A stretch of 14,298 bases of DNA. It comes from a virus. Position 1 is the first letter of the stretch. The number at the start of each line of letters is the position of its first letter. Location of the stretch: the UHGV virus genome UHGV-0208508. One strand, written 5' to 3'. Shown in pieces: positions 6,295 through 14,298 of the stretch. The translations under genes were made by a program, and so were the position numbers. The notes beneath the pieces were generated by a model, which did no database searches, was not told the origin of the DNA, and worked only from the letters and a program-made list of their open reading frames with translations.

Positions 6295-6623
6295 GAACCT
6301 ATGGCCGAAACTCTGAGGGGAAGTGGGTCCTGGTGGAAACCGACGAAAATGGGTTTAATGACTTGGTGTATTTAACCACCCTGATCCAGAATCTGAAACT
6401 GGCGCCGCAGGAGTCACCCTTTTATGCGAACAACGGAATCCCGGCCGCCGGGTCGGTGATCCAGCAAATCCTGCCGACGTATTACGTAAACCGTATTCAG
6501 AAACAGTTCAGCCAGTATTTTTCCTCGCTGCAGATTGCACTGATCAGCGACGACCCGCCTGTTTATAACATCTCGGCAATCACAAATGCAGGTTCAAAAA
6601 TAATTACACAGGTGGCCGTATGA
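6291..6623 (+). CDS. Putative baseplate wedge protein (W/gp25-like, 110 aa)
   Basis: GTG start overlapping the upstream TGA (GTGA). Size and position directly upstream of the J-like gene fit the V-W-J-I order of P2/Mu-type baseplates. Inference from synteny and size. Confidence 0.55.
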   Translation: MRTYGRNSEGKWVLVETDENGFNDLVYLTTLIQNLKLAPQESPFYANNGIPAAGSVIQQILPTYYVNRIQKQFSQYFSSLQIALISDDPPVYNISAITNAGSKIITQVAV

Positions 6624-8038
6624 GCGATTTACCAGTCAGCTATACGTCAGCAGGCCCGGTTCCTCTGACGCCGGAAGAGCTACGAGCACAGCTCGTTTCT
6701 CAGGCAATTGCGCTATCTCCGGGACTCACAACTGATTTGCCTGGATCTCTGATTGAGGACGTGGCCAGTACCGATGTCGGCGCGCTCATCGTTTGTGATC
6801 AAGCAAGGGTTGACCTGATTAACTCGGTGGGGCCACTAAAGGCTAACCTGGCCATGCTGGAGCTTCTCGCACAGCAGGCTGGTATTCCTGGGCAGAAAAC
6901 GGCTGGCACAACAACAGTCCCGGTTCAGTTTTCCGGCCCCGCGGGATTTGTTATCCCACAGGGGTTTATTGTTTCTGATGGGACCTATACCTATTCAGTC
7001 AGTGATGCGACGATTATCTCGTCGTCTGGAGTATCTGCCAGCGTATCATGCGAGGGAACGGAGACCGGGACCTGGGCGGTGCCGGTAAATACGGTTAACC
7101 AGATCATATCCAGTCTACCGTCTGACGTCACCATCACCTGCACCAACCCGATCGCCGGCACTCCGGGTGCTGACCCGGAAACGAACTATCAGTTTCGTGA
7201 TCGCGTATGGCAGGCGCAGATGGCCACCGTTCAGGGATATCCTGGATTTATCCGGCAATATCTCACCAGCCTTGATAACGTGCAGGCGCGCCTGGTTTCT
7301 GTCATTCAGGACGGGGATAAATGGATAGTCATGTGTGCCGGCGGTGATATTTACGATATTGCTGGCGCGCTCTATAAGTCTGCGGGGGATATCAGCCGGC
7401 TGAAAGGGTGTTCACTGAACGTAACGGGAATCACGAATGCAAATCCTGGTGTCGTCAGCACAGACCTGACTCATGGTTACACTGACGGCCAGGTTATCCG
7501 GATCACTGGCGTTACCGGGATGACGGGTATTAATGACGTCCCTCTGACCGTGACGGTACTGTCTCCTCACACGTTTTCCATCGGGATTGACACCACGTCA
7601 TCCGGGACCTGGGGAGGCGGCGGCGAGGTGACACCGAACGTCAGAAACAATACCGTGACGGTGAATGACTGGCCTGATAACTACGTGATCCCGTTCGTGA
7701 CGCCATTGCTGCAGCGGGTCACTGTGACGTATCAGTGGGGGACAGAAAGTGTTAACTACCTGACAGATGCCACGGTCGCCTCTCTGGTCTCGGCGCCTAC
7801 GATTCAGTATGTGAACGGCATATTCGCCGGGAAACCGCTGAACGTTAACAACCTGAAAGACGCATTCTTACAGGCGATTAACTCGACAATCGACATGGGG
7901 CTGATCAGCACTTTAAACGTCGTGGTCACCATCAATGGTGTGATAACACCACCGGATGCCGGGACGAATATCATCAGCGGCGATAAGTTCAGTTATTTTT
8001 ATATCGCGTCGGATGGCGTGATCGTAACAGGGGCGTAG
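6620..8038 (+). CDS. Baseplate J-like protein (472 aa)
   Basis: ATGA overlap with the upstream gene and an AGGTGG ribosome-binding site. A large protein between the W-like and I-like genes, which is the conserved position of baseplate J / gp6-type wedge proteins. Confidence 0.7.
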   Translation: MSDLPVSYTSAGPVPLTPEELRAQLVSQAIALSPGLTTDLPGSLIEDVASTDVGALIVCDQARVDLINSVGPLKANLAMLELLAQQAGIPGQKTAGTTTVPVQFSGPAGFVIPQGFIVSDGTYTYSVSDATIISSSGVSASVSCEGTETGTWAVPVNTVNQIISSLPSDVTITCTNPIAGTPGADPETNYQFRDRVWQAQMATVQGYPGFIRQYLTSLDNVQARLVSVIQDGDKWIVMCAGGDIYDIAGALYKSAGDISRLKGCSLNVTGITNANPGVVSTDLTHGYTDGQVIRITGVTGMTGINDVPLTVTVLSPHTFSIGIDTTSSGTWGGGGEVTPNVRNNTVTVNDWPDNYVIPFVTPLLQRVTVTYQWGTESVNYLTDATVASLVSAPTIQYVNGIFAGKPLNVNNLKDAFLQAINSTIDMGLISTLNVVVTINGVITPPDAGTNIISGDKFSYFYIASDGVIVTGA

Positions 8039-8039
8039 C

Positions 8040-8744
8040 ATGCTGGACGATATCATCCGGTCGTATATGTATACGCAATACAACGACGATGAAAATCTGC
8101 GGGCGTTTTTTACTGCGTATAACTCGATGGCGCAGGGCATTTATGACTGGATGGTTAATGCCAACCTGCCGATTTTCATCGGTGACTACAACACCGGAGA
8201 TCAGCTCCGGTGGATTGCCCATGGCATCTATGGCGTTTTGCCGCCGGTGATTTCCAGCAGCGATCAGCAGGAGATAGGCCCATATAACACCTTCGAATTT
8301 AACCAACTGGCATTCAATGAATACCGGGTGATTGACCAGTCGAACCAGGTTGTTGTCTCCGATGACCTTTTTAAGCGGATCATGACCTGGAATTTTTATA
8401 AAGGTGACGGCTTCTATTTCTCTATCCCATGGATAAAACGGCGTATTCTGCGGTTCCTGTTGGGAGTGAATGGCACCGATATCCTCAATGACCAGCGGTG
8501 GAGTATATCGATCCAGTTTGTGGATGGCGGGATCGTGATATCCATCTATAAGGGGCGCCGCAGGTTCACGCGGAGCGCTATCTACAACGCATCGGCCTAT
8601 AACTCCAGGAAGTACAACCAGAAGGACACGGCCTTTGTGATCACCGAGGATTTCGAGTTCGCTATTTTCTTCAAGCAGGCCATGGATAGCGGCCTGCTTC
8701 ACATGCCGTTTTACCAGTCAGTCACGGTTGAGATATTTGACTAG
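8040..8744 (+). CDS. Baseplate/tail protein I-like (234 aa)
   Basis: Starts 2 nt after the J-like stop with an AGGGGCG ribosome-binding site. Position between J-like and the tail-fiber genes matches P2 gpI / Mu gp48-type proteins. Confidence 0.6.
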   Translation: MLDDIIRSYMYTQYNDDENLRAFFTAYNSMAQGIYDWMVNANLPIFIGDYNTGDQLRWIAHGIYGVLPPVISSSDQQEIGPYNTFEFNQLAFNEYRVIDQSNQVVVSDDLFKRIMTWNFYKGDGFYFSIPWIKRRILRFLLGVNGTDILNDQRWSISIQFVDGGIVISIYKGRRRFTRSAIYNASAYNSRKYNQKDTAFVITEDFEFAIFFKQAMDSGLLHMPFYQSVTVEIFD

Positions 8745-8996
8745 GTTTTTATCTCGATTATCTATTGTTATATACAAATGAGATTTAACGCACTGACAAA
8801 TTATATGCAGCACAACTATTGATAAAAACAAAATGGATGACATTTTTATCATATCTATTGGCGGCATTCCTTGCTGAAAAAGAAATCCAAATAAAATAGT
8901 AAGCAAGGCGCAAGAAAGGAGTATTAATAAAGTAGATAGCGTTCCTAAAAGTATTTTTAAAATAGCAATAGAAGCATTATTCATAATATTCACCAT
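8718..8996 (-). CDS. Hypothetical small hydrophobic (two predicted transmembrane segments) protein encoded antisense in an AT-rich island; may be an artefact of AT-rich composition
   Basis: 92-codon minus-strand ORF, strongly hydrophobic (ASIAILKILLGTLSTLLILLSCALLTILFGFLF and MSSILFLSIVVLHIICQCV). No convincing Shine-Dalgarno sequence at the first ATG (a weak GGTG precedes the second ATG). AT-rich DNA readily yields Ile/Leu/Phe-rich ORFs by chance. Confidence 0.25.
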   Translation of the reverse strand: MVNIMNNASIAILKILLGTLSTLLILLSCALLTILFGFLFQQGMPPIDMIKMSSILFLSIVVLHIICQCVKSHLYITIDNRDKNLVKYLNRD

Positions 8997-9002
8997 TTAA
9001 AA

Positions 9003-9026
9003 GGCCGCGCTTGCGGTTTTTTTATT
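9003..9026 (+). terminator. Putative rho-independent terminator-like hairpin with T-tract (CCGC-GCTT-GCGG followed by TTTTTTT), flanked upstream by an A-run so possibly bidirectional
   Basis: Short GC stem (4-5 bp) with a tetraloop, directly followed by 7 T residues on the plus strand. It lies about 20 nt upstream of the first fiber gene's ribosome-binding site. Confidence 0.4.
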
Positions 9027-9045
9027 GCCTAATCCCGGAGGATAC

Positions 9046-11790
9046 ATGGCACTAACCCTTTTGGCTACAAACAACGCAGAAAGCACGCTGGCTTCTGCTA
9101 TCAGCGCAACCGACACGTCGCTGATCGTTAGCGCTGGAACTGGTGCCGAGTTCCCTGATGCTGTGGCAGGCGAGAGCTACTTTAAACTCACGCTCACCGA
9201 TGCCGCCACCGGCTCACAGGTTGAGATCGTGAACGTGACAGCTAAGGCTGGGGACATCTTCACGATTGAACGTGCGCAAGAAGGAACGCTGGCGCGTTCG
9301 TGGGCGGCCAACGACATGGTTGCCAACATGATGACGGCGGATACGCTGAACATTATCGCTCAATATGCCCAGCAGGCAGCTGCATCAGCAGCACAGGCTG
9401 CTGAGTATGCAGATAACGCTTCTGACTACGCACAGAATAAGTTCACGTTCTTTAAGACCGCCAGCGATCCTGATGGCACTATTGCCGGGCTGGCCGCAAC
9501 GACTGAAGGGCAGTCATTCTGGGTAGCCCAAGGTCCAGATGCGCTTTCTGCTGCATGGCAGTATCAGAATGTTGCGGGTGTAGCCGTGTTACAGGCTAAG
9601 CAGCCAGGAACAGCGGCTATAACCGGGACAATCCGCGAATTTCCCACGCTGGAGGCGGCACAGGCCGACGCCGATGCTGGCAATATTCCTACAGGTTCAA
9701 ATGCGTATTATCGAAGCGCTGACGACACAACTCTTGCGATTGAGGTAATCAACAACGCCGGTACGTTGACAGCAACCGGAAGAAAAATTCCAGCGTATTC
9801 CGCTTTGCGCAGAGGCAACATTTTATTCGACGCATTTAATGAATATTCAGCTGTTGATCCTAAGTTTGGTGCCTGGGACTGGTATCGCGGAGCTACTGTT
9901 ACATTTAGTACTACTGATGCCAACATTCCGTTACCGACTCCAGTGGCACAGTATTCCGGCGTATGGTCTGCAGATAAATATTATGACCTTGCCCGCCTGC
10001 CTGTAAGGGTAGGCGATCAATTAACCTTTTCTGTGCTGGCATGGTTTCAGGATGCCGGTGCTAAGTTCCATATATTCTGGATGTCCGCGAGCGGTACGAT
10101 AATATCCTCAAAATCCGTAACTGGACTGGCTTCAGGAATTAATGTTCCAGTTTTAACAGATATTGTTCCTGCTGGGGCGTCGTATGTACGAATTCGCGTA
10201 GAAAACACGACAACAGGATCGTTCAAGGTGGGAGCCTATGCGTCCGCTGTTGGTTCTATTCAGCCTGAATTTATTCGTGCCGCTCCTGACAAGACCTATA
10301 TGTCAGCGATTGTCTCTTCAGGCATCGCTGGCCTAACCTCGCGCGTGGATGCGTTGCAGGGGGCCATTTCTGTTGGGTATCCGTATGCAGCGACCTGGCA
10401 GGTTGGTAAATTTGTAAACCCAAATACCGGGGAAATAACAGATAATGCTGCGCTGAACTGTACCATAATTCCTCATAGTGACGGGGACGGTTGGCTGGTT
10501 ACTGCTCTCGTTACTGGATCGGCCACAGCTCTGGCTGTGTATATGAATGCGGCTGGCACAGTGCTGGGAGTGGAGGGGCGCGGAACAACAACGCCGCAGC
10601 AGTATACGAATTACCGCCTTAACGTTCCGTCGGGAACCACGCAGATCGGCATAACCGGTCGTAATTCTGCTCCAATGTCTGTTAAGAAATTGGCCGTTGT
10701 TGAAACTGCTACTGTACTGGCTAGCATCGATTCTCTCGATTCACGTGTACAGAAAATAGAAGATTCGCTGGTTTACGATTTCGTTCAGCAGGATGTCCCT
10801 ATTACGTCTGGAGCATATATAAACCGATCTACCGGTGCCGTCGTAACAAACTCTGCATTTGATTGTTCGATATTTGACTATACAACAGGAGATCGCTGGA
10901 AAGTTACGGCAAGGGTGAATGGAACGAGCGTATCACTCGCTGTATATTTTAATTCAGTGGGCACTGTCATTGGGACGGAAGGCGATGGTACATCAGCATC
11001 TGTGGATTACATTGATTATGAGCTGACGCCACCAACCGGCACTGCCAGGATAGGCATCACAACACGGGTTGCACTTCCTATAGTTGCTAAAAAATATGTC
11101 ATTGTTCCCAGCGGAAGTACAGTAAGTCCGTGGTCGGGAAAAATTATTGATGTAATGGGAGACAGCAACGTAGCCTATAACAAATGGCAACCGCTGGTTG
11201 CTAGTGAACTTGGTTGTTCTTTCCTGAACCATGGTGTTGGTGGTTCAAAGATCGCCAAACCCGATAGTTCACCGACACAAATCAGCATGTGTGACGACGC
11301 CAGGATTAATGCCCTCGATACGACGGCCACTGCCTGGATTTGTGGCCCGTGGGGGACAAATGACTGGGCGCAAAATATACCCATTGGAACTATTAGTGAC
11401 ACTGTGAATACCACGGTCTATGGTGCGCTAGTCATAATTGCACAAAAGCTTAGGGCGAGAGCACCAACCAAGCCTATTTTTTGGGTTACTCCATTCAACG
11501 GAGATTATGAAACTGGGAGGACTAGTTCATGGGTTGATGGGGAAACTAACCAATATGGCAGGGTGTCTGATTATTCTGCTGCAATTCGAGCTGTAGCTCT
11601 GCGATATGGCTTCCCATTGATTGATTTAAATGCAGATTGTGGGTGGACAAAATTTAATAGTAGTTATTTTTTGCTAACGGAAGGTGATACTAACCCTTCT
11701 CATATTCATTTAAATGATAGTGCTGGTCCAGCCAGAATTTCGGAGTTGGTAATAGATCGTTTAACGGCCCTTGCGAATTTGGCCAACTAG
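9046..11790 (+). CDS. Tail fiber / tailspike protein with C-terminal SGNH/GDSL-family hydrolase (esterase-like) domain (about 914 aa from ATG 9046)
   Basis: GGAGGA ribosome-binding site before ATG 9046. N-terminal about 105 aa is homologous to the N-terminus of the downstream fiber. An Ala/Gln-rich probable coiled-coil segment follows, then beta-rich repeats. The C-terminus carries GDS (VMGDSNV), a conserved Gly block (NHGVGGSK), GxND (WGTNDW) and a His block (NPSHIHLND). Confidence 0.85.
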   Translation: MALTLLATNNAESTLASAISATDTSLIVSAGTGAEFPDAVAGESYFKLTLTDAATGSQVEIVNVTAKAGDIFTIERAQEGTLARSWAANDMVANMMTADTLNIIAQYAQQAAASAAQAAEYADNASDYAQNKFTFFKTASDPDGTIAGLAATTEGQSFWVAQGPDALSAAWQYQNVAGVAVLQAKQPGTAAITGTIREFPTLEAAQADADAGNIPTGSNAYYRSADDTTLAIEVINNAGTLTATGRKIPAYSALRRGNILFDAFNEYSAVDPKFGAWDWYRGATVTFSTTDANIPLPTPVAQYSGVWSADKYYDLARLPVRVGDQLTFSVLAWFQDAGAKFHIFWMSASGTIISSKSVTGLASGINVPVLTDIVPAGASYVRIRVENTTTGSFKVGAYASAVGSIQPEFIRAAPDKTYMSAIVSSGIAGLTSRVDALQGAISVGYPYAATWQVGKFVNPNTGEITDNAALNCTIIPHSDGDGWLVTALVTGSATALAVYMNAAGTVLGVEGRGTTTPQQYTNYRLNVPSGTTQIGITGRNSAPMSVKKLAVVETATVLASIDSLDSRVQKIEDSLVYDFVQQDVPITSGAYINRSTGAVVTNSAFDCSIFDYTTGDRWKVTARVNGTSVSLAVYFNSVGTVIGTEGDGTSASVDYIDYELTPPTGTARIGITTRVALPIVAKKYVIVPSGSTVSPWSGKIIDVMGDSNVAYNKWQPLVASELGCSFLNHGVGGSKIAKPDSSPTQISMCDDARINALDTTATAWICGPWGTNDWAQNIPIGTISDTVNTTVYGALVIIAQKLRARAPTKPIFWVTPFNGDYETGRTSSWVDGETNQYGRVSDYSAAIRAVALRYGFPLIDLNADCGWTKFNSSYFLLTEGDTNPSHIHLNDSAGPARISELVIDRLTALANLAN
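10405..11106 (+). repeat. Two tandem homologous domain repeats of about 100 codons each inside the first fiber gene (about 10405-10701 and 10810-11106), diverged at nucleotide level
   Basis: Protein-level alignment by eye: GWLVTALVTGSATALAVYMNAAGTVLGVEGRGTTTPQQYTNYRLNVPSGTTQIGITGR versus RWKVTARVNGTSVSLAVYFNSVGTVIGTEGDGTSASVDYIDYELTPPTGTARIGITTR. Confidence 0.6.
11131..11787 (+). other. SGNH/GDSL hydrolase-like catalytic domain at the C-terminus of the first fiber (predicted catalytic Ser codon at 11164-11166)
   Basis: Ordered motif blocks typical of SGNH hydrolases: GDS near the domain start, a conserved Gly, GxND, and a C-terminal Asp/His block. Assigned from motif order only, with no profile search. 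Confidence 0.6.
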
Positions 11791-11865
11791 ATATTTATTG
11801 TCTTTGAAGTGAGGCTATTTCTGCGATGTTTATTCTGATAATTCCATTATTTAACAGGGGTATAT

Positions 11866-12897
11866 ATGGCGCTTAAGCTATTAGCCAATAATAACGCAAA
11901 GAGTGTTCTCGCTGCGGGTATTAGCGCGTCCGCTACCGTTATTACCGTGGGTACCGGAGCGGGGGCTTTATTCCCTTCCCCTGTATCTGGACAGAGTTAT
12001 TTCAAATTAACGATAACCGACGCGGCCACGAAAACAATTTCTGAAATTATGCACGTCACGTCTGTATCCGGTGACGTGATGACAGTAATTCGTGGTCAGG
12101 AAGGAACTACGGCACGCGTATGGTCAACAAATGACATTGTCGCGAATCTAATGACAGCCGGATCATTGTTATCGTTCCTGCAGATCAGTAATAACCTGTC
12201 AGAAATTAAAGATGCCGGTGATGATGCGGTAAATGAAGCCCGTTATAACCTCGGAATATCTGATTCCTCTGGTTTTGTCGGGCGTTCACTTGGCGCTCCA
12301 AAAGTTTTCTATGCAAACGGAACCTATACGCGATCTCCTCTGGCCCGTTATGCAAAAGTAACGTTGACCGGTGCCGGTGGCGGCGGTGGCGGCTGCCAGG
12401 CATCTAATAACACCGAAACCTTTTCCGGTGCCGGCGGCGGCGCGGGTGCGACCATTATCGTATGGGTTGACCTGTCTGCTGCCAGTTCTTACGCGATTAC
12501 TGTCGGCAAGGGTGGTAAGGGCGGAGTTGGCGCAGTAAGTGGTGCGGATGGTGGTGCTACCTCGTTTGCCAGCCTGTTCTCAGCTCCTGGCGGGAAAGGC
12601 GGCGTGAAGTCAGGCGTGTCCAATACCGCCGGCGGCGCCGGAGGTACGGCGGCGACCGGAGATATCAGGATCAACGGTGGTACCGGCTCAGATGGACAGA
12701 CAGGCTCAAGCCTTCTGACGGGAAACGGCGGGGCGTCGTATTTTGGCGGCGGTGGCCGGGCGGGTTCTCAGGCCGGTATTGCTGGCGCAGCTCCCGGATC
12801 CGGTGGTGGTGGCGCGTATGACCTTGGGTTTACCGGTACGGCATTTACCGGTGGTGATGGTGCTACTGGCATGGCGATCGTGGAAGAATTCGCGTAA
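11866..12897 (+). CDS. Second tail fiber / receptor-binding protein with glycine-rich C-terminal domain (343 aa)
   Basis: AGGGG ribosome-binding site before ATG 11866. N-terminal about 105 aa aligns with the first fiber N-terminus (MALxLLAxNNAxSxLAxxISAxxT...SYFKLTxTDAAT...QEGTxAR.W..ND.VAN.MTA). The C-terminal about 180 aa are dominated by GG/GGG/GGGG motifs separated by short variable segments. Confidence 0.8.
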   Translation: MALKLLANNNAKSVLAAGISASATVITVGTGAGALFPSPVSGQSYFKLTITDAATKTISEIMHVTSVSGDVMTVIRGQEGTTARVWSTNDIVANLMTAGSLLSFLQISNNLSEIKDAGDDAVNEARYNLGISDSSGFVGRSLGAPKVFYANGTYTRSPLARYAKVTLTGAGGGGGGCQASNNTETFSGAGGGAGATIIVWVDLSAASSYAITVGKGGKGGVGAVSGADGGATSFASLFSAPGGKGGVKSGVSNTAGGAGGTAATGDIRINGGTGSDGQTGSSLLTGNGGASYFGGGGRAGSQAGIAGAAPGSGGGGAYDLGFTGTAFTGGDGATGMAIVEEFA

Positions 12898-12901
12898 TGG
12901 C

Positions 12902-14062
12902 TTACACTCCTGCACGACCATCGATGTAATCAGCCCACCACTGCATCATTTCTCTGCGCTTATCTAGATACTGAGCATGGTTGTAAATACCGCGCACAGA
13001 TCCGCCGTTGGCATGTGCCAGCTGCACTTCAATAGCGTCAGCAGGCCATTCGTGCTCGTTCATAATCGTGCTGAATTCATGCCTGAATCCGTGACCGCTT
13101 TCCAGACCCTCATAGCCGATTTGTTTGATCACAAGCAGTACCGCATTCTCGCAGATTGGCTTCTTCTTATCGTTGCGCCCGGCAAAAACAAACTCTGAGA
13201 CTGGTTTGGTGATTGAGCTTAGCGTAGTGAGAAGTTCAACCACCTGGTCTGACATAGGAACAACATGAATCTTGCGGCCCTTCATCACACTGGCGTCGAT
13301 AGTGATAATCCTGTTTTCAAAATCGACGTTCTTCCATAGCATGGAACGAAGCTCTTTTGTTCTGAGGGCTGTGTAGCGTAAAACTTTGGTCGCAATGAGC
13401 GATACGATACTTCCTGAAAATGTTGCCAGTGCTTTGTTGAATGCAGGGATCTGGTCTGCTGGGAGAAACGGGAAGTTCTTCTTGCGGTATCCCTTCATGG
13501 CGTCAGCAAGGTCAGGTGCCGGGTTATATTTAGCCCTTCCGGTGACAATAGCGTAACGGAAAACCTCGCCGCATCTTCTGCGTGCTTTGTTGGCTCGCTC
13601 CATTGCACCGCGATCTTCAAATCTGCGGATTACTTCCAGCAGTTGCATCGGCTCAATATCCTGAATTTCAAGGCCGCCGATGATAGGTAAAATGTCGTCA
13701 TCAAACATTTTTGCAAGTTCAGTTGCATACCCTACTGACCATACTTGCTTCTTGTGCTCGTACCATTCTTTGTAAATCGCACTAAAGGAATTGTTGTTAG
13801 ACGAAGCCTTTTTCGCTTTTACCGGATCGATGCCAACCGAGATGTCTTTCCTCGCGGTCCATGCTTTATCTCTTGCCTCCTGCAAAGTCATAAGCGGATA
13901 TTTTCCGACGGTCAGGATTTTCTCCTTACCGTCAATCTTGTAGCGAAGCTGCCATACCTTTTTCCCTGACACAGGGACATAAAGGTACAGGCCATTACCA
14001 TCGAGTAGGCGGTATGGTTTTTCTTTCGGCTTTGCTGCTTCAATCTGCTTAACGGTGAGCAT
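12902..14062 (-). CDS. Phage integrase, tyrosine recombinase of the P4/IntS-like family (386 aa from the ATG at 14060-14062; an in-frame GTG at 14096-14098 would add 12 codons)
   Basis: 398-codon minus-strand ORF with C-terminal catalytic-domain signatures (HGFRHEF for His-x-x-Arg, and RGIYNHAQY with the presumptive catalytic Tyr) and an N-terminal arm-type DNA-binding region. It lies about 125-160 bp from a co-oriented tRNA gene, the canonical integrase-tRNA arrangement. Confidence 0.9.
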   Translation of the reverse strand: MLTVKQIEAAKPKEKPYRLLDGNGLYLYVPVSGKKVWQLRYKIDGKEKILTVGKYPLMTLQEARDKAWTARKDISVGIDPVKAKKASSNNNSFSAIYKEWYEHKKQVWSVGYATELAKMFDDDILPIIGGLEIQDIEPMQLLEVIRRFEDRGAMERANKARRRCGEVFRYAIVTGRAKYNPAPDLADAMKGYRKKNFPFLPADQIPAFNKALATFSGSIVSLIATKVLRYTALRTKELRSMLWKNVDFENRIITIDASVMKGRKIHVVPMSDQVVELLTTLSSITKPVSEFVFAGRNDKKKPICENAVLLVIKQIGYEGLESGHGFRHEFSTIMNEHEWPADAIEVQLAHANGGSVRGIYNHAQYLDKRREMMQWWADYIDGRAGV

Positions 14063-14223
14063 GGGTAAAAATCCGGTGGGTAAAATTATTTTATCCACTT
14101 TTTACCCGTCATGGAGTGCGGCTGTCAACGATCTGACGCGAACCATTACGAACTGTGAATCTACGGAAGGCTTGATATTCAGGGGATTTTGCGGACTGGT
14201 ACGGATGGGAGCGAACTGATAAA

Positions 14224-14298
14224 TGGTGTCCCCTGCAGGAATCGAACCTGCAATTAGCCCTTAGGAGGGGCTCGTTATATCCATTTAACTAAGAGGAC
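14224..14298 (-). tRNA. argW: tRNA-Arg (anticodon CCU), 75 nt including 3' CCA; its 5' end coincides with the window edge
   Basis: The reverse complement reads GTCCTCTTAGTTAAATGGATATAACGAGCCCCTCCTAAGGGCTAATTGCAGGTTCGATTCCTGCAGGGGACACCA. It folds as a cloverleaf with a 7 bp acceptor stem (GTCCTCT/AGGGGAC), T-arm GCAGG-TTCGATT-CCTGC, and anticodon loop CUCCUAA (anticodon CCU). It matches my recollection of enterobacterial argW. Confidence 0.88.

What the first reader, a model, noticed from the sequence alone, without database searches (positions are those of the whole stretch)
12860..12940. Fiber gene and integrase converge with stops only 4 bp apart and no terminator or cargo between them
The fiber stop (TAA at 12895-12897) and the integrase stop (12902-12904 on the minus strand) are separated by 4 nt. 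Convergent transcription would therefore run into the opposite gene. In lambdoid vegetative maps an accessory region usually sits between the fibers and att/int, and many tRNA-integrated prophages carry conversion genes there. Its absence suggests either a very compact element or a past deletion or recombination that brought the fiber 3' end right up to the integrase.
Basis: seen in the sequence. Interest (0 to 1): 0.35.

Follow-up and report, generated by a model that had tools for sequence, protein, structure and literature searches.

The report
Ordinary compact fibre–integrase gene junction
The tail-fibre gene and the integrase gene of this prophage do end four bases apart, but the same joint occurs in dozens of related phages, so it is an inherited compact module boundary and not the scar of a lost cargo region.

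Summary
The glycine-rich fibre ORF (11866-12897, +) stops at TAA 12895-12897. The IntS-type integrase (12902-14062, -) stops at 12902-12904. The spacer is TGGC, and no terminator-like site or ORF lies between them.

The 10-mer TAATGGCTTA recurs in 38 related loci, counting the window. In 15 both genes are intact, in 12 there is only a ~45-nt fibre fossil beside an intact integrase, in 8 an intact fibre sits beside an 87-225-nt integrase fossil, and in 3 both are fossils.

A search by the fibre protein alone found 21 informative loci. In 12 IntS ends 4 nt after the fibre, in 4 there is an IntS fossil, and in 5 something else follows: an att site or prophage end in four, another integrase 196 nt on in one. 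None has cargo genes.

Other IntS/argW phages do carry cargo 3' of int: gtrABS in K-12, oac in Sf6, neuO in CUS-3.

A real recombination joint exists, but it lies inside int (12930-12969). An E. coli-type IntS body is fused there to a 3' tail that travels with the fibre. The only deletion scar is upstream, at 11820-11856.

This is an ordinary mosaic boundary in a Chronis/RothC-like prophage at argW.

The parts
9025..11790 (+). First tail fibre, 921 aa (914 aa from the ATG at 9046), with a C-terminal SGNH/GDSL esterase domain
   Evidence: Pfam Lipase_GDSL_2 and PHROG tail-fibre families. RefSeq names the 99.4%-identical gene in ETEC4091 an SGNH/GDSL hydrolase.
11820..11856 (+). Fossil of the 3' end of a HumD/UmuD-like gene that relatives carry in full just upstream of the glycine-rich fibre. 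This is the only deletion or replacement scar in this part of the window.
   Evidence: Alignment with N921, Chronis, RothC and PDP110P2. Homology begins about 35 nt before their gene's TAA stop. The full gene is annotated.
11866..12897 (+). Glycine-rich second tail fibre (343 aa plus stop), the last gene of the tail arm
   Evidence: The N-terminal 101 aa are 58% identical to the 921-aa fibre.
12895..12904 (.). The joint TAA-TGGC-TTA: fibre stop, 4-nt spacer, integrase stop
   Evidence: The same 10-mer is present in 38 related loci counting the window.
12902..12929 (-). 3' tail of int (encoding ...DYIDGRAGV, plus the stop codon), an allele inherited with the fibre side and not with the integrase body
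   Evidence: In 12890-12929 the window matches Chronis at 37/40 and L077 at 40/40, but Sf6 at 14/40 and K-12 at 16/40. There are two C-terminal alleles: YIDGRAGx when the gene abuts the fibre, WLDEKVE/R elsewhere.
12930..12969 (.). Crossover zone inside int. It is conserved in all IntS variants, and to its right the window switches to the E. coli-type IntS body.
   Evidence: Sliding identity. Megablast matches to Sf6, HK620 and CUS-3 start at 12928-12930.
12902..14062 (-). intS, a P4/KplE1-type tyrosine integrase (386 aa plus stop)
   Evidence: Pfam. It is 96-98% identical in DNA to Sf6, HK620, CUS-3 and K-12 intS. RefSeq annotates the orthologue as intS.
14099..14128 (-). PintS-like promoter within the attL arm: TTGACA at 14128-14123 and TAAAAA at 14104-14099
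   Evidence: Sequence. The boxes match those described, with a mapped transcription start, for K-12 intS in PMC2951348. The region is about 97% identical to K-12 and Sf6.
14224..14298 (-). tRNA-Arg(CCU), argW. Its 3' end carries the att core at about 14223-14238.
   Evidence: ARAGORN and Rfam. The annotated Sf6 attP core aligns to the end of the match at 14238.

Best explanation
The 4-nt gap is the inherited, compact boundary between two exchangeable modules of a temperate myovirus of the Chronis/RothC group, integrated at argW. On one side is the end of the late tail arm, whose last gene is a glycine-rich second fibre. On the other side is the 3' end of an IntS-type integrase transcribed towards it.

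In this type of recombination module the att site and the integrase promoter lie upstream of int, next to the tRNA. Nothing therefore needs to sit between int's 3' end and the fibre, and in this lineage nothing does.

Modules on either side are replaced by recombination within the last tens of bases of the flanking genes, which leaves the joint itself untouched. In the window, an E. coli-type IntS body was recombined onto the lineage's own int tail at 12930-12969.

Inferred and not shown: int is transcribed weakly from the autoregulated PintS in the lysogen, and the fibre is transcribed only late. The two genes would then rarely be transcribed at the same time. Read-through on either strand is untranslated RNA with more C than G, which Rho would be expected to terminate.
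For: Shown:
(1) The joint is exact, with no terminator or ORF.
(2) The same 4-nt joint is annotated in E. coli N921 and CUVET20-416. 49 of 5426 complete E. coli genomes cover at least 80% of 11800-14298, and 70 cover at least 80% of the 121-nt joint.
(3) 38 related loci, counting the window, carry TAATGGCTTA in four states: 15 with both genes intact, 12 with a fibre fossil and intact int, 8 with an intact fibre and an int fossil, and 3 with both as fossils.
(4) A search by the fibre protein alone, not conditioned on the joint, gave 21 informative loci. In 12 IntS stops 4 nt after the fibre, including two with a Klebsiella-type IntS at 85% aa identity. Four have an IntS fossil. Five have a different downstream sequence: in three a partial tRNA 3' end (an att site) lies about 200-240 nt after the fibre, in one the RothC-type attP breakpoint lies about 150 nt after it, and in one a different integrase lies 196 nt away.
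(5) Complete phage genomes agree. Chronis has an 88-nt gap made of fibre fossil, RCIP0114 a 174-nt gap, and RothC a 185-nt gap. None holds a gene.
(6) There is a mosaic switch inside int.
(7) The PintS boxes are present upstream of int, and the promoter is characterised in K-12 (PMC2951348).

Inferred: GC skew is +0.13 to +0.33 over 12450-12900 and -0.08 to -0.27 over 12900-13150. Both read-through RNAs therefore have more C than G.
Against: No transcript data were available, so the temporal separation of the two genes and Rho termination are inferences.

The joint-based search is conditioned on the joint being present. Only the smaller fibre-based set is unbiased, and many IMG/VR contigs in it stop at or soon after the fibre.

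In three loci (L073, L075, L090) two small unannotated ORFs of 94 and 179 aa follow the partial tRNA. I take them as flank because they lie beyond the att-like tRNA fragment, but their origin was not established.

Int-sense RNA folds of the joint are slightly more stable than shuffles (z from -0.5 to -2.65). A weak structural role is therefore not formally excluded.
Confidence: 0.85

Rival explanations
1. A recent deletion in this element, or its immediate ancestor, removed an accessory or conversion region (such as gtrABC or oac) between the fibre and the integrase. That deletion fused the two gene ends.
For: Other phages with the same IntS module do carry cargo next to int's 3' end: K-12 CPS-53 gtrABS, Sf6 oac, CUS-3 neuO, 611R6 OafA. 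The window shows a deletion or replacement scar elsewhere, at 11820-11856.
Against: The identical joint occurs with a Klebsiella-type int body (76-85% identity) and with a second fibre-end type (88% identity).

Fossils of each gene still abut the joint in other lineages.

The int tail allele next to the joint (YIDGRAGx) differs from the allele in the cargo-bearing phages (WLDEKVE/R). The cargo-bearing arrangement is therefore not the parent of this one.

Both ORFs end with full-length, conserved C-termini.
Confidence: 0.03
2. The joint and its flanks of about 45 nt on each side are a selected functional element. Candidates are a bidirectional transcript-end or RNA-stability structure, an antisense control of int by late transcripts, or a conserved linker that promotes modular exchange of fibres and integrases. 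On this reading, that function is why the joint survives even when a flanking gene is dead.
For: The 10-mer is invariant in 38 loci, including 23 in which one or both flanking genes are fossils.

At least four different int truncation points and one fibre truncation all spare the joint.

The int-sense RNA of 12840-12960 folds with z = -1.95 (7 of 200 shuffles fold as well), and one relative reaches z = -2.65.
Against: The search that yielded most of these loci used the joint as its query, so survival of the joint is partly ascertainment.

There is no U-tract and no terminator-like site in the window or in Chronis.

The + strand fold is less stable than shuffles (z = +1.18).

Predicted pairings differ between variants, and z-scores for four of seven sequences are between -0.5 and -1.3.

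The fossils carry 1-nt indels and substitutions up to 14 nt from the joint, as expected for neutral decay.

Four invariant spacer bases are not significant. Rfam finds nothing.
Confidence: 0.08
3. The juxtaposition is an assembly or chimera artefact of the source sequence.
For: None. It was considered only because the window's origin is unknown.
Against: The same arrangement is present in 49-70 complete RefSeq E. coli genomes, in sequenced phage isolates and in IMG/VR contigs.
Confidence: 0.01

Closest known systems
KplE1 (CPS-53) / HK620 / Sf6 / CUS-3 IntS recombination module at argW (Panis et al. 2010, PMC2951348)
   Same: The integrase body is 96-98% identical in DNA. It uses the same tRNA-Arg(CCU) site. 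The layout is the same, with att and the dedicated PintS promoter upstream of int, and the -35/-10 boxes are present.
   Different: The last 8-9 codons of int are a different allele (YIDGRAGV against WLDEKVE/R). What lies 3' of int also differs: here a convergent fibre stop 4 nt away, there conversion genes (gtrABS, oac, neuO, OafA).
Klebsiella phages vB_Kpn_Chronis, RothC/RothD and RCIP0114 (proposed Maevirinae/Felixviridae, bioRxiv 10.1101/2024.12.02.626457)
   Same: The tail module is 93-95% identical over 46-74% of the window. Gene order is the same: sheath, tape measure, baseplate, fibres, then a convergent integrase with no cargo.
   Different: Chronis and RCIP0114 have a Klebsiella-type IntS body (76-79% DNA identity) and only a ~45-nt fossil of the window-type fibre at the joint. 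RothC uses a different integrase, with attP in a 185-nt gap after the fibre.
Sibling E. coli prophages with a lambda-type att/int module (ETEC4091; 'PDP110P1/P2')
   Same: The fibre module is 99.4% identical from 8000 to 12988. That stretch includes the joint and 87 nt of the intS 3' end.
   Different: intS is only a fossil. It is followed by lambda-like sib/attP sequence; the core GCTTTTTTATACTAA is recognised from my own knowledge. The prophage sits next to ybhB-bioA, the classical lambda attB region.
Lambda b-region and sib retroregulation downstream of int
   Same: The position is comparable, between the tail-fibre end and the integrase end of a lambdoid map.
   Different: Here att is upstream of int, so a sib-type element split by integration cannot operate. 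No conserved hairpin was found.

Membership tests
IntS (KplE1/HK620/Sf6-type) tyrosine integrase module | Tyrosine-recombinase catalytic domain plus an N-terminal arm-DNA-binding domain | tested here: met
   Pfam Phage_integrase 5e-39, Phage_int_M 6e-28, Arm-DNA-bind_3 2e-25.
IntS (KplE1/HK620/Sf6-type) tyrosine integrase module | Integration at argW, with tRNA and int in the same orientation and the int promoter inside attL | tested here: met
   tRNA-Arg(CCU) lies at 14224-14298 (-) and int at 12902-14062 (-). TTGACA and TAAAAA boxes lie at 14128-14099, as described in PMC2951348.
IntS (KplE1/HK620/Sf6-type) tyrosine integrase module | High sequence identity to the characterised members | tested here: met
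   96-98% DNA identity to Sf6, HK620, CUS-3 and K-12 from 12930 to 14238, but not over the last 28 nt of int.
IntS (KplE1/HK620/Sf6-type) tyrosine integrase module | A TorI-type excisionase at the opposite prophage end, and negative autoregulation of int | not testable with these tools
   The other prophage end lies outside the window, and regulation needs an experiment.
Chronis/RothC-like temperate phages (proposed Maevirinae) | Shared tail-module gene content and order, with nucleotide similarity | tested here: met
   93.4% identity over 74% of the window to Chronis, and 94.8% over 46% to RothC/D. Gene order matches.
Chronis/RothC-like temperate phages (proposed Maevirinae) | Genome-wide identity thresholds for genus and subfamily | not testable with these tools
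   Only 14.3 kb of the prophage is in the window.
Intrinsic (Rho-independent) bidirectional terminator | A G+C-rich hairpin followed by a U-tract on each strand at the convergent gene ends | tested here: not met
   No terminator-like site at the joint in the window or in Chronis. The small stem formed by the two stop codons has no U-tract.
Lambda sib-type retroregulator of int | A conserved RNase III hairpin 3' of int, on the far side of attP so that integration disconnects it | tested here: not met
   att lies 5' of int. The predicted folds are not conserved among variants.
Lysogenic-conversion cargo locus between fibre/spike and int (gtrABC, oac, neuO) | One or more accessory genes in the interval | tested here: not met
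   The interval is 4 nt. No relative of this lineage has genes there.

The most novel reading that the evidence does not exclude
The joint, together with the conserved last ~45 nt of the fibre gene and the last ~30-90 nt of int, may be maintained by selection. It could serve as a hinge or linker sequence that channels homologous recombination, so that fibres and integrase/att modules can be swapped independently between unrelated temperate phages. It might also double as an unconventional transcript-end or RNA-stability element for both convergent mRNAs.
Probability: 0.07. Interest if true: 0.4.

Novelty: already known. Interest (0 to 1): 0.12.

Why it matters
It matters little beyond annotation. 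The result shows that a missing accessory region next to an integrase is not by itself evidence of a deletion.

In modules where att and the int promoter lie upstream of int, the 3' end of int can abut whatever the neighbouring module ends with.

The locus is a clean worked example of phage mosaicism. One joint is preserved in four states, and the crossover points lie inside gene 3' ends. The same fibre module is carried by phages using three different att/int systems: argW IntS, lambda attB, and a RothC-type site.

That example may help anyone delimiting prophage modules or predicting host range and integration site separately.

Tried and rejected
(1) Intrinsic terminator at the joint. The scans of the window and of Chronis found none.

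(2) Known RNA family. Rfam with permissive thresholds over 12500-14298 found only the tRNA.

(3) Conserved RNA structure across the joint. The int-sense fold has z = -1.95 in the window, but z is between -0.5 and -1.5 in most relatives. The pairing registers differ, and the + strand has z = +1.18. The complementarity is explained by G-rich Gly/Asp/Trp codons facing each other. I rejected this as evidence of function.

(4) Exact-pattern scan of species-representative genomes with TTCGCGTAATGGCTTAC. It gave 13 hits in unrelated phyla and none in Enterobacteriaceae. A 17-mer is expected to occur tens of times by chance in 596 Gb, so this was uninformative. One IMG/VR hit (L026) was also a chance match.

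(5) Whether the ORFs after the fibre in L073, L075 and L090 are cargo. They have no match in E. coli genomes, no Pfam hit and no intact tRNA nearby. A partial tRNA 3' end about 200 nt after the fibre marks an att site, so they are most likely flank. This was not fully resolved.

(6) Statistical rarity of a 4-nt convergent gap. I did not compute this, for lack of a genome-wide annotation table. From general knowledge, convergent gene ends that are very close or overlapping are not rare in compact phage and bacterial genomes.
Full report
**Observation**

The window reads ...GAATTCGCG TAA TGGC TTA CAC... at 12886-12907. The + strand ORF 11866-12897 (343 aa) stops at TAA 12895-12897. The minus-strand ORF stops at 12902-12904. 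Four bases, TGGC, separate the two stops.

The consensus scan over 11500-14298 finds no terminator-like site near the joint, and the total found is no higher than in shuffles. Rfam finds only the tRNA.

**What the two genes are**

The minus-strand gene is an IntS-type tyrosine integrase. It has an arm-binding domain, a central domain and a catalytic domain. RefSeq starts the orthologue at the ATG equivalent to 14062, giving 386 aa, and names it intS. tRNA-Arg(CCU), which is argW, lies at 14224-14298 on the same strand.

From 12930 to 14238 the DNA is 96-98% identical to the integrase/att region of Sf6, HK620, CUS-3 and K-12 CPS-53/KplE1. The -35 and -10 boxes described for the mapped K-12 intS promoter are present at 14128-14099, as TTGACA and TAAAAA (PMC2951348). 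In this kind of module, att and the int promoter lie upstream of int, and int is transcribed away from the tRNA.

The + strand gene is a glycine-rich protein (Pfam Gly_rich_2) with strong PHROG tail-fibre matches. Its first 101 residues are 58% identical to the N-terminus of the upstream 921-aa SGNH-esterase fibre. It is therefore a second fibre using the same attachment domain.

The rest of the window is a contractile-tail module: sheath, tape measure with transglycosylase, hub, and baseplate J-like protein. It is 93-95% identical to Klebsiella phages vB_Kpn_Chronis and RothC/D. A preprint proposes placing these temperate phages in a new subfamily.

**Is the juxtaposition a scar or an inheritance?**

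E. coli N921 and CUVET20-416 have the same two genes at argW with the same 4-nt gap. 49 of 5426 complete E. coli genomes cover at least 80% of 11800-14298. 70 cover at least 80% of a 121-nt query centred on the joint.

An exact search for the joint in IMG/VR, combined with the loci already fetched, gives 38 related loci counting the window. All carry TAATGGCTTA, in four states:

| State | Loci |
|---|---|
| Both genes intact (one fibre is 5'-truncated) | 15 |
| Fibre fossil (last ~14 codons) next to an intact integrase | 12 |
| Intact fibre next to an integrase fossil of 87-225 nt | 8 |
| Both genes as fossils | 3 |

- Chronis and RCIP0114 belong to the second state. Their 88-nt and 174-nt 'gaps' contain ...GGAGATGGCGC.GATGG...GA.TTCGCGTAATGGCTTAC. 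This is a decaying copy of a fibre 3' end, with a 1-nt deletion in RCIP0114.
- PDP110P1/P2 and E. coli ETEC4091 belong to the third state. ETEC4091 is 99.4% identical to the window from 8000 to 12988. There the intS remnant gives way to sequence containing the lambda attP core (my recognition of GCTTTTTTATACTAA), and the prophage sits beside ybhB-bioA.
- Other integrase fossils end at different points in p10A, AJ5, EJN001 and the 47.9-kb circular replicon NZ_CP141750.

The joint search is conditioned on the joint being present, so I repeated the survey using the fibre protein alone. It gave 21 informative loci:

| What follows the fibre | Loci |
|---|---|
| IntS stops 4 nt after the fibre (two have a Klebsiella-type IntS, 85% aa identity) | 12 |
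| IntS fossil | 4 |
| A different downstream sequence | 5 |

Among the five different cases:
- In three, a partial tRNA 3' end lies about 200-240 nt after the fibre, which marks an att site.
- In one, the RothC-type attP breakpoint lies about 150 nt after the fibre.
- In one, a different integrase lies 196 nt away.

None has genes between the fibre and int or att. The complete RothC genome has a 185-nt gap with no gene.

**Where recombination did happen**

A sliding comparison shows a switch inside int. In 12890-12929 the window matches Chronis at 37/40 and L077 at 40/40, but Sf6 at 14/40 and K-12 at 16/40. From 12930 rightwards it matches Sf6 and K-12 at 36-40/40 and Chronis at only 24-33/40. 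The interval 12930-12969 is conserved in all of them.

The protein ends confirm two alleles. The allele is ...ADYIDGRAG(V/E/Q-type) wherever int abuts the fibre joint, with either an E. coli-type or a Klebsiella-type body. It is ...ADWLDEKV(E/R) in K-12, Sf6, CUS-3, 611R6 and the second intS of EJN001.

The last ~28 nt of int therefore belong evolutionarily to the fibre side. The window's integrase body was acquired by a crossover 26-67 nt from the stop. The juxtaposition itself is older, because intact fibre plus intact Klebsiella-type IntS already have the 4-nt gap (L076 and L077).

A separate scar lies upstream. Window 11820-11856 is the last ~35 nt of a HumD/UmuD-like gene that N921, Chronis, RothC and PDP110P2 carry in full before the glycine-rich fibre.

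The premise is right for other phages that use this integrase:

| Element | Cargo 3' of intS |
|---|---|
| K-12 CPS-53 | yfdGHI (gtrABS) |
| Sf6 | oac |
| CUS-3 | neuO |
| vB_EcoP-611R6 | an OafA-type acetylase |

The Chronis-like lineage simply does not carry cargo there. Its variable genes (extra fibres, the HumD-like gene, small ORFs) sit upstream of the last fibre.

**How it probably works**

Shown: there is no intrinsic terminator, and int has its own promoter next to att.

From the literature: that promoter is weak and repressed by IntS and TorI, and it is uncoupled from the lytic promoters (PMC2951348).

Inferred:
- In the lysogen only a trickle of int transcription enters the antisense fibre.
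- After induction, late transcription reads antisense through int, when integrase is no longer needed.
- Both read-through RNAs are untranslated and have more C than G. GC skew is +0.13 to +0.33 over 12450-12900 and -0.08 to -0.27 over 12900-13150. That composition suits Rho-dependent termination. I am recalling here, from general knowledge and without having checked it, that Rho suppresses antisense transcription in E. coli.

Nothing in the data calls for a dedicated element.

**Test of a functional element**

The int-sense RNA of 12840-12960 folds better than most shuffles (z = -1.95, 7 of 200). The + strand does not (z = +1.18). In six relatives z ranges from -0.54 to -2.65, and the predicted pairings differ. 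The recurrent long-range stem comes from TGG/GAT-rich int codons facing the antisense of Gly/Asp codons.

The fossils carry indels within 14 nt of the joint. Four invariant spacer bases are not significant at the observed divergence. I give a selected role about 7-8%.

**Verdict**

The feature is real, but it is an ordinary, inherited module boundary. It is already present in many sequenced genomes and phages. Interest is low.

The useful by-products are the mapped crossover inside int, the fossil series around one joint, and the finding that one fibre module is carried by phages with three different integration systems.

Noticed in passing
window 11820-11856: About 35 nt that match the 3' end of a HumD/UmuD-like gene. 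Relatives (N921, Chronis, RothC, PDP110P2) carry that gene in full, together with a 79-aa gene, just before the glycine-rich fibre. The window has lost or replaced those genes here.
   Followed up: partly
window 8745-9024 (ORF 8718-8996, minus strand): An AT-rich island (28-35% GC against about 50-58% around it) lies between a baseplate-associated gene and the first fibre. It holds a reverse-strand 92-aa hydrophobic ORF with no Pfam or PHROG match. N921 has a different 133-aa reverse-strand gene at the same place, while RefSeq annotates nothing there in ETEC4091. It is a candidate moron slot.
   Followed up: partly
window 12902-12929; L054, L007, L055, L056, L012: IntS has two C-terminal alleles. 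...YIDGRAGx (386 aa) is linked to the fibre joint. ...WLDEKVE/R (385 aa) is found in K-12, CUS-3, 611R6 and EJN001, where it is followed by a conserved ...CCTTAACAACTATCGAA... sequence; Sf6 has the same allele but a different downstream sequence.
   Followed up: partly
L057 (E. coli ETEC4091, NZ_CP122617.1) and L003/L006 (PDP110P2/P1): A sibling phage has a 99.4% identical fibre module but a lambda-type sib/attP/int module. It is integrated beside ybhB-bioA and keeps 87 nt of intS as a fossil. The two PDP110 records are filed under different virus genera (Wanchaivirus and Lambdavirus), yet the 310 nt compared around the joint are identical in both.
   Followed up: partly
L010 (NZ_CP141750.1, 47,948-bp circular 'plasmid' of E. 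coli 2023CK-01482): A replicon deposited as a plasmid carries the fibre genes, the intS fossil, another integrase and early genes. It looks like a circular phage genome or a phage-plasmid. The same strain also has the argW prophage with the intact joint.
   Followed up: no
L012 (E. coli EJN001, argW region): A composite at argW. In order it holds the HumD-like gene, a fibre fossil, the joint, a 225-nt intS fossil, fibre and assembly genes of a different phage, and a second intact intS beside the tRNA. This suggests tandem or nested prophages followed by deletion.
   Followed up: no
window 6620-8038: The baseplate J-like protein also matches Pfam E1_FCCH (ubiquitin-activating enzyme E1 FCCH domain, 4e-14). 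RefSeq names the orthologue after that domain.
   Followed up: no
L073, L075, L090 (IMG/VR), about 400-2000 nt after the fibre stop: Three loci with different fibre C-termini share the same downstream stretch. It holds a partial tRNA 3' end, then ORFs of 94 and 179 aa without Pfam matches. In L073, the only locus long enough to show it, a transthyretin/HIUase gene follows. The stretch has no match in E. coli genomes, so the host is another genus.
   Followed up: partly
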